IMG/VR virus record: IMGVR_UViG_3300023184_000048
Location: 52,742 to 116,741 of that record
Reading direction: 5' to 3' (one strand)
From: a virus
Length of the DNA: 64,000 nt
The notes beneath the pieces were generated by a model. The model saw nothing but the letters and a program-made list of their open reading frames with translations, made no database searches and was not told the DNA's origin. Position numbers and translations under genes: made by a program. Position 1 is the stretch's first letter, and each line of letters begins with the position of its first letter. Positions 9,670 through 64,000 of this stretch are shown piece by piece.

Positions 9670-9999
9670 ATGAAACCTGAAGAACAACAAATTGTGATTG
9701 CCGAGGCTTGCGGGTGGACTGAATTCTGGGAGACGGAACGCCAAGGTTGGCGTTCCCAAAACCCCGATGGTAGCGGGGACAACTTCCTCCCCGATTATCT
9801 GAGCGATCTCAACGCGATGCATGAAGCTGTAAAAACTTTACCGCAAAATATTAAACCGCGCTACTTTGCATGTCTTTGTTCTGTTGTCTCTGGCGCAATT
9901 TCTTTATATGGATATTCAGAAGCAACAGAAGCCACTGCCGCAAAACGCGCAGAAGCATTCCTCAAGGCCTTAGAACTTTGGGATGAGGCGCATCATTAA
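9670..9999 (+). CDS. Phage ABA-sandwich-like conserved protein, GC-rich
   Basis: IAEACGW..PDYLSDLNAMHEA..ATAAKRAEAFLKAL; 78/140 GC counted at 9691-9830. Confidence 0.65.
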   Translation: MKPEEQQIVIAEACGWTEFWETERQGWRSQNPDGSGDNFLPDYLSDLNAMHEAVKTLPQNIKPRYFACLCSVVSGAISLYGYSEATEATAAKRAEAFLKALELWDEAHH

Positions 10000-29810: not shown

Positions 29811-29834
29811 TAGATTCATTCGTTGGACATAGAT

Positions 29835-29880
29835 AACCTCTGGGAATTTTAGAAATATTATTCCTAGAGGTTTTCTTTAT
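29835..29880 (+). terminator. Rho-independent terminator-like hairpin
   Basis: AACCTCTGGGAAT/ATTCCTAGAGGTT 13-bp stem (one G-U pair) followed by a T-rich tract. Confidence 0.7.
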
Positions 29881-29904
29881 TAAAAACTAAAATATAATAA
29901 ATTT

Positions 29905-38545: not shown

Positions 38546-38561
38546 TAAGATTTGAATAATT

Positions 38562-38639
38562 GGGGGTGGGTTGTAAAATATTGACGAGTGTCAATATCAC
38601 ATCTGTTGTGTTTGTTTTTTCATAAAACAACCCACCCCC
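38562..38639 (+). ncRNA. Structured intergenic element: 13-bp stem enclosing two hairpins
   Basis: GGGGGTGGGTTGT/ACAACCCACCCCC; ATATTGAC-GAGT-GTCAATAT; CACA-TCTGT-TGTG. Confidence 0.6.
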
Positions 38640-38671
38640 TTATTCATTAAAAACTATAATATAATAACCAT

Positions 38672-39016: not shown

Positions 39017-39186
39017 AATACGATTGGAATGAATTCCGAGTCTTTATTCCTGATGAGGGATTTAGATTGGTGTCACAATTGACAAATAAGGAAGCTAAGG
39101 ATCACCTATGTTCTATTATTGAATTGGTTGAATCCTTAGCTTCCAAAAATGAAGAATGTCTTAAATTAATAAACTTACAAAAATAA
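39013..39186 (+). CDS. Hypothetical protein
   Basis: GTGA overlap. Confidence 0.6.
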   Translation: MKYDWNEFRVFIPDEGFRLVSQLTNKEAKDHLCSIIELVESLASKNEECLKLINLQK

Positions 39187-39201
39187 TAAACTTATAATAA
39201 T

Positions 39202-52647: not shown

Positions 52648-52658
52648 GTAAATGATCT

Positions 52659-52766
52659 TATCACCAAGGGATTTGAATATCTCATAATAGCTTAATTAAA
52701 GCCTTCGTATAGTAACGATGAGTTCTGGTAATAATCCAGTTATGAGTAAAAAATCCCTTGGTGATA
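52659..52766 (+). ncRNA. Cloverleaf RNA mounted on a perfect 16-bp stem
   Basis: TATCACCAAGGGATTT/AAATCCCTTGGTGATA; CTCATAA/TTATGAG; GCTT/AAGC; TCGT/ACGA; CTGG-N7-CCAG. Confidence 0.65.
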
Positions 52767-52795
52767 TTCTTTAAAAACTAAACTACAAAAAGAGT

Positions 52796-60762: not shown

Positions 60763-60863
60763 GTGTAAAGTTCATGAAACCCTTATAAAACAAGGAAAGT
60801 AATGATAGAGATAAGGGAATAGCAAGAAAGATACATTAAAAACTAGATTAGAATATACTTACG

Positions 60864-61406
60864 ATGAAACCAATTACAAATTTGTTGAATGAAGTTGAAT
60901 TTAATAAACTTACACGTAATCAAAAACGTGTAAAGATTGCAGAAGATGTGATTTTTCGTATCTTTGCTGAAAATCTTATCGAAAGTAATGGTAGTATTCT
61001 TGGAGGTAATATTAAAGAAATTGTCGAGGAAGTTCCTCTGAAAGAAGCTATTAATAATACTTCATGTGAAGTATGTGCAAGAGGTGCAATTATGTGTTCT
61101 TGGATTGGTAATTTTAATAAAGTTACTTGGAATGATATTGATCCTTTATATCGTAGAATGATTGATTATAGTTCCAAAGGTTTCCCCCCACAATTACTCG
61201 AAGTATTTGATCAGGAAATGCTTGACAATATTGAAGCAGCATTTGAGCATTCTACTTTCGAATGGCATTATGATCACAATGAAACACAAAAGTATGTGGA
61301 TGCTTTTGAAAGATATGATGATGAAGAGGATGAATACATTGGAACTCCCATTGTTTTACTCATGGAATGGATCATCAAGAACAATGGTGATTTTCCCCTC
61401 CCATAA
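60864..61406 (+). CDS. Hypothetical protein
   Basis: Cassette-N9-ATG; C.VCA.GA motif. Confidence 0.75.
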   Translation: MKPITNLLNEVEFNKLTRNQKRVKIAEDVIFRIFAENLIESNGSILGGNIKEIVEEVPLKEAINNTSCEVCARGAIMCSWIGNFNKVTWNDIDPLYRRMIDYSSKGFPPQLLEVFDQEMLDNIEAAFEHSTFEWHYDHNETQKYVDAFERYDDEEDEYIGTPIVLLMEWIIKNNGDFPLP

Positions 61407-61440
61407 CAATCATTAAAAACTAGGTTAAAATATTACTATC

Positions 61441-61572
61441 ATGAAAACAAACGGATTCACACTATTGGAATTGATTCTTGGAATCTTTATTGGTTTGGTC
61501 GGAATTACAGTTATCTTGTATGTCATTACATGGATCATAGTTCTTTATCACTTCATTACCAAATTCTGGTGA
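61441..61572 (+). CDS. 43-aa prepilin-like peptide (class III signal, GFTLLEL)
   Basis: MKTNG|FTLLELILGIFIGLVGITVILYVITWIIVLYHFITKFW; cassette-N9-ATG. Confidence 0.75.
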   Translation: MKTNGFTLLELILGIFIGLVGITVILYVITWIIVLYHFITKFW

Positions 61573-61603
61573 TCATTAAAAACTAGGTTAAAATACTACT
61601 ATC

Positions 61604-61810
61604 ATGAAGCTCAAACAATACATCGGTAATACAATCTACATCGTCAATGATAACTATTTTGCTGATGGATTCTTTGGAAAACTTGATATCATTCAAAGTA
61701 GATCGGGAGAGTTCTATAATTATCTTGTCAATGGTGTTCAATTCTTTGATAGTGATATTATCAATATTGACAACGAATGTGTTGGTGATATACTTGTGAC
61801 TCTGAAGTAA
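61604..61810 (+). CDS. Hypothetical protein
   Basis: Cassette-N9-ATG. Confidence 0.75.
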   Translation: MKLKQYIGNTIYIVNDNYFADGFFGKLDIIQSRSGEFYNYLVNGVQFFDSDIINIDNECVGDILVTLK

Positions 61811-61820
61811 TACTTATAAA

Positions 61821-61897
61821 GGACATGTAGCTCAGTCGGATAGAGCAAAAATTTTCTAAATTTTAGGTCATTGGTTCGATCCCAATCATGTCCACCA
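61821..61897 (+). tRNA. tRNA-Arg(UCU)
   Basis: GGACATG/CATGTCC acceptor, GCTC/GAGC D stem, AAAAT-TTTCTAA-ATTTT anticodon arm, ATTGG-TTCGATC-CCAAT, encoded CCA. Confidence 0.92.
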
Positions 61898-61937
61898 ATT
61901 TTCAAATCATTAAAAACTAGATTAAAATACTACTATC

Positions 61938-62558
61938 ATGAATATCGAAACTAATAACTCTTGTAACTCTTGTAACTCTTGTAACTCTTGTAACTATTGT
62001 GACTATTGTGACTCTTGTGACTCTTGTAACTATTGTGACTATTGTGACTCTTGTTACTATTGTTACTCTTGTGACTCTTGTGACTCTTGTAACTCTTGTA
62101 ACTCTTGTAACTCTTGTAACTCTTGTGACTCTTGTAACTATTGTGACTCTTGTGACTCTTGTGACTCTTGTTACCCTTGTTACTATTCAAAAAATCTTAA
62201 AATGACTGAATACAACACATTTTGTTGGTCTGAACAATACAATGATGATAAGTCATTCCAACAAAAACGTTATCGTATCTTTAATAAAGAGTATTCAAAA
62301 TCTGCATACGTAAAAATTACATCAAAGATTGAATCCATTATTCCTAATCCCAATAAACTGAAGTTATCAGAGTTTTGGAAAAAGATCACTCAGGATCAAA
62401 TCAAATCTATCATGAATATTGAAGATCTTGAATTTGATGTGGAAGGTTTTGAATATATCACTGGAATCAAGGTTCAAAAAGAACTTAGTGAAGTTGAAAA
62501 AGCTATTCAACTTTTGACCGAAAAAGGATTACTGAAGGATGGAAAGGTTCTCTTATAA
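61938..62558 (+). CDS. Cys-rich tripeptide-repeat protein
   Basis: 25 x-x-C units, then YRIFNK-type domain seen in phage repeat proteins. Confidence 0.8.
   Translation: MNIETNNSCNSCNSCNSCNYCDYCDSCDSCNYCDYCDSCYYCYSCDSCDSCNSCNSCNSCNSCDSCNYCDSCDSCDSCYPCYYSKNLKMTEYNTFCWSEQYNDDKSFQQKRYRIFNKEYSKSAYVKITSKIESIIPNPNKLKLSEFWKKITQDQIKSIMNIEDLEFDVEGFEYITGIKVQKELSEVEKAIQLLTEKGLLKDGKVLL
61956..62180 (+). repeat. 25 x 9-bp tandem repeat (AAC/GAC/TAC)(TCT/TAT)TGT
   Basis: Direct reading of the sequence. Confidence 0.95.
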
Positions 62559-62571
62559 ATTATAATACTCC

Positions 62572-62671
62572 CATTCTCAATAAGGATTAATTATTGATTG
62601 TTAACCCTAGAGCAAAACAACTTTATTTGTTGTAGGTATAAGGAATGATATAAATGTCCTTATTGAGAATG
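62572..62671 (+). ncRNA. Candidate small RNA: perfect 15-bp terminal stem enclosing hairpins
   Basis: CATTCTCAATAAGGA/TCCTTATTGAGAATG; ACAAC-N7-GTTGT; TATAAT at 62561-62566 places the start at the stem. Confidence 0.6.
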
Positions 62672-62704
62672 ATTGATTAAAAACTAGATTAAAATACTCA
62701 TATC

Positions 62705-62872
62705 ATGAACGGTTACAAAGCATTTTACAAAGGAAAGTCAATCGAAATTTATGCCAATACTTCTTATGGGGCGCAACAATTAGCAGCAAAACAATTCAAG
62801 GCTAAAAAGTCTTACGATGTGACAGTCGTTCTTTGTGAGAAAGGAGAAGAGCAAGTGTTTCATACTGCCTGA
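62705..62872 (+). CDS. Conserved small phage protein (55 aa)
   Basis: MNGY.AFYKGK..E.YA.TSY.AQ..AA..FK.KK. Confidence 0.75.
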   Translation: MNGYKAFYKGKSIEIYANTSYGAQQLAAKQFKAKKSYDVTVVLCEKGEEQVFHTA

Positions 62873-62883
62873 TTGAATAACTT

Positions 62884-62951
62884 TCAGATTAAGGACATTT
62901 CATCTTGACATTACCACTGAGATATGTTAATATTGAATGTCCTTAATCTGA
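62884..62951 (+). promoter_or_regulatory. Canonical sigma70 promoter (TTGACA-N17-TAATAT) enclosed by a perfect 16-bp inverted repeat
   Basis: TCAGATTAAGGACATT (62884-62899)/AATGTCCTTAATCTGA (62936-62951); -35 at 62905, -10 at 62928. Confidence 0.7.
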
Positions 62952-63017
62952 CTAATCGGGGAGAAGGATAATGATATTTATTTAATCAATCAGTTATGAT
63001 TTAAAACATAAACTAAT

Positions 63018-63092
63018 TGTCCCGTAGCTGAGAGGTTTTAGCACTTTCTTTATAAGGGAGAGACGTGGTTTCGATTACCACCGGGACTACCA
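63018..63092 (+). tRNA. tRNA-Ile(UAU), with non-canonical U1-U72 and U53-A61
   Basis: GTCCCG/CGGGAC, GCTG/TAGC, CTTTC-TTTATAA-GGGAG, GTGGT-TTCGATT-ACCAC, encoded CCA. Confidence 0.8.
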
Positions 63093-63129
63093 TTTTATTC
63101 ATTAAAAACTAGATTAGAATACACTTACA

Positions 63130-63300
63130 ATGAACTACAAAATTACAAATATTGATTGGGATACTGATGGAAACGTGGAAGATTTCAATTCACTTCCACA
63201 AGAAGTTATTGTAAGTGTTGCTGATGAGGATGATATTGCTGATGCACTTTCTGATGCTTATGGATGGTGTGTCAAGTCTTTTGAATCCACCCCAGCCTAA
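63130..63300 (+). CDS. Conserved small acidic phage protein (56 aa)
   Basis: YKITNI.WDTDG...LP..V...D.IAD.LSD.YGWCV.SF. Confidence 0.75.
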   Translation: MNYKITNIDWDTDGNVEDFNSLPQEVIVSVADEDDIADALSDAYGWCVKSFESTPA

Positions 63301-63325
63301 TTAAAAACTAGATTAGAATAAGCGT

Positions 63326-63532
63326 ATGAAAGATCCTATTGAAGCTATTCGATTCGCTGGTTTTAGTCTTAAATTTGCTGAAGAAGTATTGATCAAAGCT
63401 CAAAATAAGGCCAATGAATCAGGCGAGAATGTTTACATCTGTCTTGATTACAGGAGTATCTATTATGTTTATCATTCCTTTCTCACAATGTCTGATGATG
63501 TAATCACCCACGTTGAACCAATTAAAAACTAG
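63326..63532 (+). CDS. Hypothetical protein
   Basis: Cassette-N6-ATG; ends IKN*. Confidence 0.75.
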   Translation: MKDPIEAIRFAGFSLKFAEEVLIKAQNKANESGENVYICLDYRSIYYVYHSFLTMSDDVITHVEPIKN

Positions 63533-63546
63533 ATTAGAATACTTTC

Positions 63547-63635
63547 GAGATTACCACTCCCCCGAAAGGAGAAGGAAAGAACATGTCACTGCAATAATAC
63601 TGCAAACCCTCACACCTGAATTGACAGGAAATCTC
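63547..63635 (+). ncRNA. Cassette-driven candidate small RNA (89 nt)
   Basis: Begins exactly 6 nt after the -10; GAGATT/AATCTC closing stem; CTCC/GGAG, TGCA/TGCA and CCTG/CAGG hairpins. Confidence 0.6.
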
Positions 63636-63674
63636 AATCATCTTCATTAAAAACTAACTTAGAATACTACTATC

Positions 63675-64000
63675 ATGGAACGTAAAACCAAACAACAAAT
63701 CATCGAAGAGACTTTCAATTACTACAATGAAGATCCTTCCCGTCGTGCCAAGACTAATGGAAAGTGTCAATACTTGGATGTTAATGGCAATATGTGTGCT
63801 TTTGGTAGGTGTGAAATCAATCCTCCTTTGTCTAAAGGTATCAGTGATAGTGTGACTGATAGGTTTGATGCACAAGAAGAGATGGATCAAGCTTTAAAAG
63901 AAGAATATCGTGGACATTCATTTGATTTCTGGTCTGATCTTCAAGCCTTTCACGACAATGAATATTATTGGGATCTTGAAGCTGGAAAGGTTGATGAAGA
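63675..64000 (+). CDS. Hypothetical protein (3' truncated by window)
   Basis: Cassette-N9-ATG; C.Y....G.MCAFG pattern; absent from the ORF track because there is no stop. Confidence 0.75.
   Translation, partial: MERKTKQQIIEETFNYYNEDPSRRAKTNGKCQYLDVNGNMCAFGRCEINPPLSKGISDSVTDRFDAQEEMDQALKEEYRGHSFDFWSDLQAFHDNEYYWDLEAGKVDE

What the first reader, a model, noticed from the sequence alone, without database searches (positions are those of the whole stretch)
63521..63635. A cassette that drives an RNA instead of a protein
Seen: the position where the ATG normally falls (6 nt after the -10) holds G63547. This is the first base of a GAGATT/AATCTC stem closing an 89-nt unit with three hairpins (CTCC-CCCGAAA-GGAG, TGCA-N7-TGCA, CCTG-N6-CAGG), and the next cassette starts 10 nt later. 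This independently supports the predicted +1 of the cassette and defines a probable highly expressed novel sRNA.
Basis: partly seen in the sequence, partly recalled or inferred. Interest (0 to 1): 0.7.

Follow-up and report, generated by a model that had tools for sequence, protein, structure and literature searches.

The report
Promoter cassette without a gene
In an uncultured T4-like phage that puts one strong promoter directly against the start codon of about 60 genes, one copy has no start codon or gene behind it. It probably makes a short non-coding stretch of RNA, but nothing tested shows this to be a folded, self-contained small RNA.

Summary
A perfect copy of the phage's repeated promoter lies at 63522-63541. 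No ATG sits in the usual slot. An 89-nt stretch (63547-63635) has ends that pair over 6 bp, it holds three 4-bp hairpins, and the next cassette follows 10 nt later.

The structure is no better than chance:
- Fold z-score is -1.2; 24 of 200 shuffles fold as well.
- The whole gap is among the three least structured of the 16 gaps scored, several of which reach z -4 to -7.6.
- No terminator follows.
- Rfam and tRNA searches find nothing.
- No copy or complementary target exists in the phage or in its closest complete relative.

In the local cassette subclass the ATG sits 9 nt after the -10, and that slot here reads ATT, followed by only 15 codons.

In favour of something special, the unit is a strong composition outlier (C 27%, T 17%, GC 45%). 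The relative G001 also has gene-less cassettes: one drives a tRNA and two drive short units.

Best reading (about 0.5): an empty cassette whose non-coding transcript runs into the next gene. A true small RNA remains possible (about 0.25).

RNA data and the DNA of close relatives could not be reached. The scan had already noted this cassette array on the same genome.

The parts
63522..63541 (+). Promoter cassette copy (box plus -10), 20/20 identical to the copies at 60836, 63102 and 63301. The stop codon TAG of the upstream 68-aa gene (63530-63532) lies inside it.
63535..63540 (+). -10 hexamer TAGAAT
63547..63547 (+). Predicted transcription start (G, 7th base after the -10). Inferred from the array's spacing; no RNA data.
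   Evidence: 46 of 63 cassettes have the A of ATG at this slot; in the 9-nt class a purine is here
63550..63597 (+). ATT in the start-codon slot of the local 9-nt cassette class, followed in frame by 15 codons to TAA 63595-63597. Contains a C5 run at 63559-63563.
   Evidence: reading of the sequence
63547..63635 (+). The 89-nt unit: 6-bp closing stem (63547-52 / 63630-35) and three 4-bp hairpins (63557-71, 63590-604, 63615-28). Composition outlier: C 27%, T 17%, GC 45%.
63566..63597 (+). Purine-rich Shine-Dalgarno-like run followed by a 4-codon mini-ORF (ATG 63583 to TAA 63597). The run shares the 9-mer GGAGAAGGA with the tRNA-Ile leader at 62960.
   Evidence: the phage otherwise shows no Shine-Dalgarno use
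63636..63645 (+). 10-nt spacer with no T-run and no terminator
63646..63674 (+). Next promoter cassette (9-nt class)
63675..64000 (+). Downstream gene, cut by the contig end. It belongs to a family also found in Cellulophaga phages phi38:1 and Calle. A transcript from 63547 would read into it.

Best explanation
This is an empty (gene-less) copy of the phage's early promoter cassette.

Shown:
- A perfect promoter copy is present.
- There is no ATG at either start-codon slot: G/A at the 6-nt slot and ATT at the 9-nt slot.
- No ORF of 30 codons or more starts behind it.
- No terminator lies before the next cassette, which starts 99 nt after the predicted start.

Inferred:
- RNA polymerase starts at about G63547 and makes an untranslated stretch of about 100 nt.
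- Having nothing to stop it, it continues through the next cassette into the gene at 63675. That gene's translated message comes from its own proximal promoter.
- The slot most likely arose by decay or replacement of a small ORF, or by local copying of the promoter. The three consecutive copies at 63102, 63301 and 63522 are identical.
- Such events fit a recombination-prone array of the PeSL type known from T4-like phages.
- The three-hairpin fold is incidental.
For: - Only 1 of 63 cassettes lacks both ATG and ORF. The local class puts the ATG 9 nt after the -10, where this copy has ATT followed by 15 codons.
- Fold z -1.18 for the unit and -0.71 for the whole gap. Other intergenic elements of the same phage reach z -4 to -7.6.
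- No terminator-like site follows the unit.
- No Rfam or tRNA hit.
- No paralogue or complementary target above shuffles in 117 kb.
- The structure model finds no second copy in the phage, in relative G001, or in other loci.
- G001 has the same promoter-against-ATG design and several gene-less cassettes that are simply followed by another promoter and a gene (141543, 150604, 177522, 177717).
- PeSL cassettes of T4-type phages recombine and delete or insert the ORFs between them (PMC2839356, PMC4122927).
Against: - The unit's composition is far from the phage's coding DNA: C at the 99.9th percentile, T at the 0.4th, GC at the 98.9th. A decayed native ORF would not look like this.
- The promoter is perfectly intact.
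- The predicted 5' end is paired from the very first base, and the pairing partner ends just before the next cassette (about 4% by chance).
- In G001 one cassette clearly drives an RNA gene (tRNA-Arg). One gene-less unit there has a 12-bp hairpin starting at the predicted +1, with z -3.8.
- The frame that is open across the unit has no homologue, so no ancestral gene can be named.
Confidence: 0.5

Rival explanations
1. A genuine phage small RNA. The cassette was recruited to make an early, abundant RNA of about 90-100 nt, C-rich and only weakly structured. Its 3' end would be made by processing, or it would act as the 5' part of a longer transcript. It might serve as a decoy or sponge for a host or phage factor.
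For: - Perfect promoter with no start codon.
- Strong composition outlier, as RNA genes often are in AT-rich genomes.
- The 5' end is paired from +1, and the unit fills the slot exactly.
- It lies in a 2-kb stretch with two tRNA genes and two strongly folded non-coding elements.
- T4 keeps two small stable RNAs of unknown function, rnaC and rnaD, right after its tRNA-Arg (PMC9697503).
- The relative G001 has cassette-driven non-coding units and a cassette-driven tRNA.
Against: - The fold is not better than shuffles.
- No terminator.
- No family match.
- No similarity to T4 rnaC or rnaD.
- No target complementarity in the phage.
- The phage's own tRNA genes use a different promoter type with a TTGACA -35.
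- Conservation could not be tested.
Confidence: 0.25
2. A functional long leader. The distal promoter gives the gene at 63675 a second mRNA form with a 128-nt 5' untranslated region whose 5' end is base-paired. This would change the stability or translation of that form compared with the near-leaderless form from the proximal promoter.
For: - No terminator lies between the two promoters.
- Tandem promoter arrangements occur in the relative G001.
- The 5'-terminal pairing starts at +1.
Against: - Both promoters are of the same class, so there is no obvious gain in timing.
- The closing stem is 6 AU-rich pairs around a 77-nt multiloop, so it is weak.
- The read-through transcript 63547-63740 folds no better than shuffles (z -1.0).
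Confidence: 0.12
3. A tiny peptide gene. Either the 15-codon frame from ATT 63550, or the 4-codon ATG 63583 mini-ORF behind the purine-rich Shine-Dalgarno-like run.
For: - ATT sits exactly in the start slot of the local cassette class.
- An AAGGAG-type run lies 6-11 nt before ATG 63583, and a similar pair precedes tRNA-Ile at 62960.
- G001's gene-less cassettes include one with GTG in the start slot plus 14 codons, and one with an 8-codon ATG frame.
Against: - By established knowledge, translation of mRNAs with no or nearly no leader depends on a 5' AUG, and AUU is a poor start.
- Genes of this phage show no Shine-Dalgarno use.
- The products would be 4-15 residues with no homologues.
Confidence: 0.06

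Closest known systems
PeSL (promoter-early stem-loop) cassettes in the hyperplastic regions of T4-type phages (Arbiol et al. 2010, PMC2839356; Comeau et al. 2014, PMC4122927)
   Same: Many copies of one strong early promoter flank small orphan genes in a variable region of a T4-like genome. Recombination between copies deletes or inserts the DNA between them, which would readily leave a slot without a gene.
   Different: Here the promoter abuts the start codon, giving messages with no or almost no leader. There is no terminator stem-loop in this slot, and the slot holds 99 nt of unusual composition rather than nothing.
T4 rnaC and rnaD (species 1 and 2 small stable RNAs) next to the T4 tRNA genes
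   Same: Non-coding phage RNAs of unknown function in the tRNA neighbourhood of a T4-type genome. T4 also carries tRNA-Arg and tRNA-Ile there.
   Different: No sequence similarity. T4 rnaC folds at -50 kcal/mol over 139 nt, whereas this unit is at chance level. In T4 these RNAs directly abut tRNA-Arg, whereas this unit is separated from tRNA-Ile by two genes and has its own mRNA-type promoter.
Gene-less cassettes of the relative G001 (211,724-bp complete IMG/VR genome, terminase 69% identical)
   Same: The design is the same: box plus -10 with the ATG 6 nt later. Some cassettes lack an ORF. One is followed by tRNA-Arg, two by a second promoter, and two by 53-63-nt units and then the next cassette.
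   Different: The box sequence differs. There is no sequence or model match to this unit. One G001 unit has a clearly significant hairpin, and this one does not.

Membership tests
This phage's own leaderless-mRNA cassette | Box plus -10 promoter consensus | tested here: met
   20/20 match to neighbouring copies
This phage's own leaderless-mRNA cassette | ATG 6 nt (main class) or 9 nt (right-end class) after the -10, opening an ORF of at least 30 codons | tested here: not met
   G63547 and ATT 63550; the longest in-frame run is 15 codons
PeSL cassette (T4-type phages) | Strong sigma70-like early promoter, repeated, flanking orphan ORFs in a variable region | tested here: met
   63 copies, all on the + strand, flanking small ORFs without homologues. 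Promoter activity itself was not tested.
PeSL cassette (T4-type phages) | Adjacent stem-loop that terminates transcription | tested here: not met
   No terminator-like site in 63533-63674; gap z -0.71
T4 rnaC/rnaD-type small stable RNA | Sequence or structure similarity to rnaC or rnaD | tested here: not met
   Local alignment scores are within shuffles (p 0.34 and 0.65)
T4 rnaC/rnaD-type small stable RNA | Stable discrete RNA processed from the tRNA cluster transcript | not testable with these tools
tRNA or tRNA-like RNA | Cloverleaf recognised by ARAGORN or the Rfam tRNA model | tested here: not met
   Only 61821-61897 and 63018-63092 are found. Nothing in the unit even at E up to 10.
Any Rfam family (including CRISPR repeats, relevant to RNA anti-CRISPRs, and ribozymes) | Covariance-model match | tested here: not met
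   The best matches overlapping the unit are noise: CRISPR-DR57 14.1 bits E 7.6, snoZ118 E 5.6, snoU13 E 7, all on the opposite strand
Structured small RNA in general | Fold more stable than shuffled sequence, and pairs kept by compensatory change in relatives | tested here: inconclusive
   The stability part is not met (z -1.18). The covariation part is untestable because no homologous DNA could be fetched.

The most novel reading that the evidence does not exclude
The cassette is a dedicated early gene for a C-rich, loosely folded RNA of about 90-100 nt. It would belong to a class of promoter-cassette-driven non-coding units shared, in architecture though not in sequence, with relatives such as G001. 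It would act on a host or phage factor, for example as a decoy or sponge carrying the purine-rich GGAG-type run, in a phage that otherwise has no ribosome-binding leaders.
Probability: 0.2. Interest if true: 0.55.

Novelty: new member of a known kind. Interest (0 to 1): 0.3.

Why it matters
If the unit is only an empty slot, it is a small illustration of how promoter-cassette arrays in T4-like phages gain and lose genes. It is also a useful internal control. It shows what the promoter looks like without a start codon, and it gives a clean place to map the transcription start of this unusual promoter-against-ATG system.

If it is a real RNA, it would add an early-expressed small RNA to the very few known from virulent phages (PMC8244752 notes how few are predicted). 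That would make the gene-less cassettes of this phage group worth a systematic look.

Tried and rejected
- **DNA homology:** blastn of 62600-64000 against 50,697 phage records found no match. An exact 19-mer of the unit was absent from IMG/VR. Promoter 21-mers gave only single chance hits in IMG/VR and one in GTDB genomes.
- **Flanking genes:** The downstream gene family has 13 homologues and 28 loci in metagenomes and IMG/VR, all at most 51% identical and with unrelated upstream DNA. The upstream 68-aa gene has homologues at 88% and 81% identity, also 68 aa long, on ENA/Logan contigs of 216 kb and 7 kb.
- **Closest complete relative G001:** It has no homologue of the region.
- **Structure model:** A covariance model built from the single sequence found only itself.
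- **Decayed-gene test:** The 45-aa frame that is open across the unit has no homologue. The 37-aa opposite-strand frame hit only repeat proteins. This does not settle the question.
- **Remnant of the tRNA-Ile region:** Two shared 9-mers and a T-arm-like 13-mer with a 2-nt gap are suggestive, but the local alignment is not significant (p 0.07).
- **Antisense regulator of phage genes:** The best complementarity is 12 nt, within shuffles.
- **TTGACA at 63621 as a -35:** No -10 lies at 16-18 nt, so this was rejected on reading the sequence.

Full report
**Setting**

The window is the last 64 kb of a 116,741-bp IMG/VR phage contig, estimated 57% complete. The phage has T4-type genes:
- large terminase, tail sheath and baseplate wedge;
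- two RNA ligases, a UvrD-type helicase and a GyrB-like ATPase.

GC is 33%. One promoter-like motif, a TTAAAAACTA box followed 3 nt later by a TAnAAT -10, occurs 62-63 times. All copies are on the + strand and all lie inside the window. By my count:
- 46 copies have the ATG 6 nt after the -10 hexamer;
- 9 have it 9 nt after;
- 3 have it 7-8 nt after;
- 4 have leaders of 13-28 nt;
- 1, the finding, has no ATG and no ORF.

Eight of the ten right-end cassettes (60837-63648) belong to the 9-nt class. Earlier notes of this scan on the same genome describe the same array. I re-derived it independently.

**The observation**

- promoter 63522-63541, with -10 TAGAAT at 63535-63540;
- G63547 as the 7th base after the -10;
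- closing stem 63547-63552 / 63630-63635;
- hairpins at 63557-63571, 63590-63604 and 63615-63628;
- next cassette from 63646.

ViennaRNA returns exactly this structure as the minimum-energy fold. It is not more than chance would give.
- MFE is -15.3 kcal/mol against -11.8 ± 2.9 for shuffles (z -1.18; 24 of 200 shuffles fold as well).
- The unit ranks 13th of 63 among the first 89 nt of all cassette transcripts, although it is much richer in GC.
- A 6-mer that finds its perfect reverse complement within the next 99 nt occurs at 4.4% of all window positions.
- The phage has 19 non-coding gaps of at least 70 nt, of which 16 were short enough to score. Several fold far better than shuffles: 38546-38671 at z -7.4, 52648-52795 at z -7.6, 62559-62704 at z -5.6, and 62873-63129 at z -4.3.
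- The finding's own gap scores z -0.7, among the three least structured of the 16 scored.

In the local 9-nt class the 7th base after the -10 is a purine, and the ATG follows two bases later. In that register G63547 is the start purine and the ATG slot, 63550-63552, reads ATT. Only 15 codons follow before TAA at 63595-63597.

One extra C in the C5 run at 63559-63563 would join this frame to the frame that stays open up to the TAA inside the next cassette, giving 33 codons. This is a reading of the sequence, not a demonstrated history. That frame has no homologue among 5.8 billion proteins.

**Searches for identity**

- ARAGORN and Rfam, at gathering thresholds and at E up to 10, find only tRNA-Arg(UCU) at 61821-61897 and tRNA-Ile(UAU) at 63018-63092. 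Matches overlapping the unit are noise on the opposite strand.
- No terminator-like site follows the unit. The whole 58-64 kb stretch has no more such sites than shuffles.
- There is no similar DNA in the phage collection or IMG/VR.
- No paralogue or complementary stretch above shuffles exists in the 117-kb contig.
- A covariance model of the unit finds no second copy in the contig, in relative G001, in five loci with the downstream gene family, or in the T4 tRNA region.
- T4 does keep two small stable RNAs of unknown function, rnaC and rnaD, right after its tRNA-Arg (PMC9697503). They show no similarity to this unit.

**Points in favour of something non-trivial**

- The unit is a marked composition outlier for this genome: C 27% (99.9th percentile of 89-nt windows between 20 and 64 kb), T 17% (0.4th percentile), GC 45% (98.9th percentile). 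This is unlike native coding DNA on either strand.
- The unit shares the 9-mers ATTACCACT and GGAGAAGGA, in the same order, with the region upstream of tRNA-Ile (62910, 62960). These 9-mers are rare in the genome. The overall alignment is not significant (p 0.07).
- Phage genes show no Shine-Dalgarno use. The AAGGAG-type run before the 4-codon ATG 63583 frame is therefore unlikely to work as a ribosome-binding site in this system.

**Relatives**

The closest complete relative I could read is G001 (211,724 bp, terminal repeats, terminase 69% identical). It has the same design with a different box: TTAAAACCGA, then AnTATAAT, then 6 nt, then ATG. There are 42 exact box copies and about 60 copies when up to three mismatches are allowed.

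G001 has no homologue of this region, but it does have gene-less cassettes:
- One (159450) is followed by an 8-codon frame, a leader of about 110 nt and tRNA-Arg(UCU).
- Two (141543, 150604) are followed by a TTGACA-type promoter abutting the next ATG.
- Two with a TAAGAT -10 (177522, 177717) are followed by 53-63-nt GC-rich units and then the next cassette. One of these units has a 12-bp hairpin starting at the predicted +1 (z -3.8). The other is at chance level and has GTG in the start slot followed by 14 codons.

Gene-less cassettes are thus a recurrent minor feature of this phage group. Some plainly drive RNA, and none has a terminator of its own.

Closer relatives exist. The upstream 68-aa gene has 88% and 81% identical homologues of the same length, so it is not a truncated gene.

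**Interpretation**

It is shown that this is a perfect promoter copy with no start codon, no ORF, no terminator and no significant fold. It is inferred that it fires at about G63547 and that the transcript reads into the next gene.

The most economical reading is an empty slot in a recombination-prone promoter array. This is the situation described for PeSL cassettes of T4-type phages, where recombination between cassettes removes or inserts the intervening ORFs (PMC2839356; PMC4122927). The three identical consecutive promoter copies fit recent local copying. I give this reading about 0.5.

A true small RNA (about 0.25) is kept alive by the odd composition, the intact promoter, the paired 5' end, the tRNA neighbourhood and the G001 precedents. 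A functional long leader for the downstream gene (about 0.12) and a tiny peptide (about 0.06) are less likely.

The finding is real as an anomaly but modest. The claim of a defined 89-nt three-hairpin sRNA is not supported by anything I could test.

Noticed in passing
window 62572-62671: A 100-nt non-coding element closed by a perfect 15-16-bp terminal stem. MFE is -35.4 kcal/mol at 28% GC, z -6.95, with 0 of 200 shuffles as good. TATAAT lies at 62561-62566 just upstream. It is a far better structured-RNA or terminator candidate than the finding.
   Followed up: partly
window 61767-61794 and 62905-62933: Both tRNA genes are preceded by TTGACA, N16-17, then a TG-extended -10. This promoter type differs from the box cassettes used for protein genes. 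The second lies inside a 28-nt-arm inverted repeat (62884-62951).
   Followed up: partly
window 62910, 62960, 63074, 63550, 63568: The rare 8-9-mers ATTACCAC(T) and GGAGAAGGA cluster within 650 nt: upstream of tRNA-Ile, in the tRNA-Ile T-arm, and in the finding. This may be a trace of local duplication, but the alignment is not significant (p 0.07).
   Followed up: partly
window 9670-9960: A coding stretch with up to 62% GC in a 33% GC phage. It looks like a recently imported gene.
   Followed up: no
window 38546-38671, 52648-52795, 29811-29904, 39017-39201: Intergenic gaps that fold far better than shuffles (z -3.9 to -7.6). They are likely gene-end hairpins or insulators of the cassette array.
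   Followed up: no
window 61938-62558: A 206-aa gene containing about 25 tandem copies of a 9-nt unit, which gives a 3-residue repeat rich in Cys, Asn and Ser.
   Followed up: no
whole contig (G000) and G001: Genes that lack their own promoter show almost no Shine-Dalgarno motifs (12 of 224 ORF starts in a crude count). The relative G001 uses the same promoter-against-ATG design with a different box sequence, so the design is conserved while the box evolves.
   Followed up: partly
G001:C1:196159-196232 (locus L189): ARAGORN calls a tRNA with anticodon CTA (reads the TAG stop codon) among 22 tRNAs of the relative phage. This is a possible amber suppressor.
   Followed up: no
G001:C1:177522-178300 (locus L188): Four tandem variant cassettes with a TAAGAT -10. 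Two have no gene. They are followed by a GC-rich 122-aa gene and a GC-rich repeat-like tail, which looks like an imported island.
   Followed up: partly
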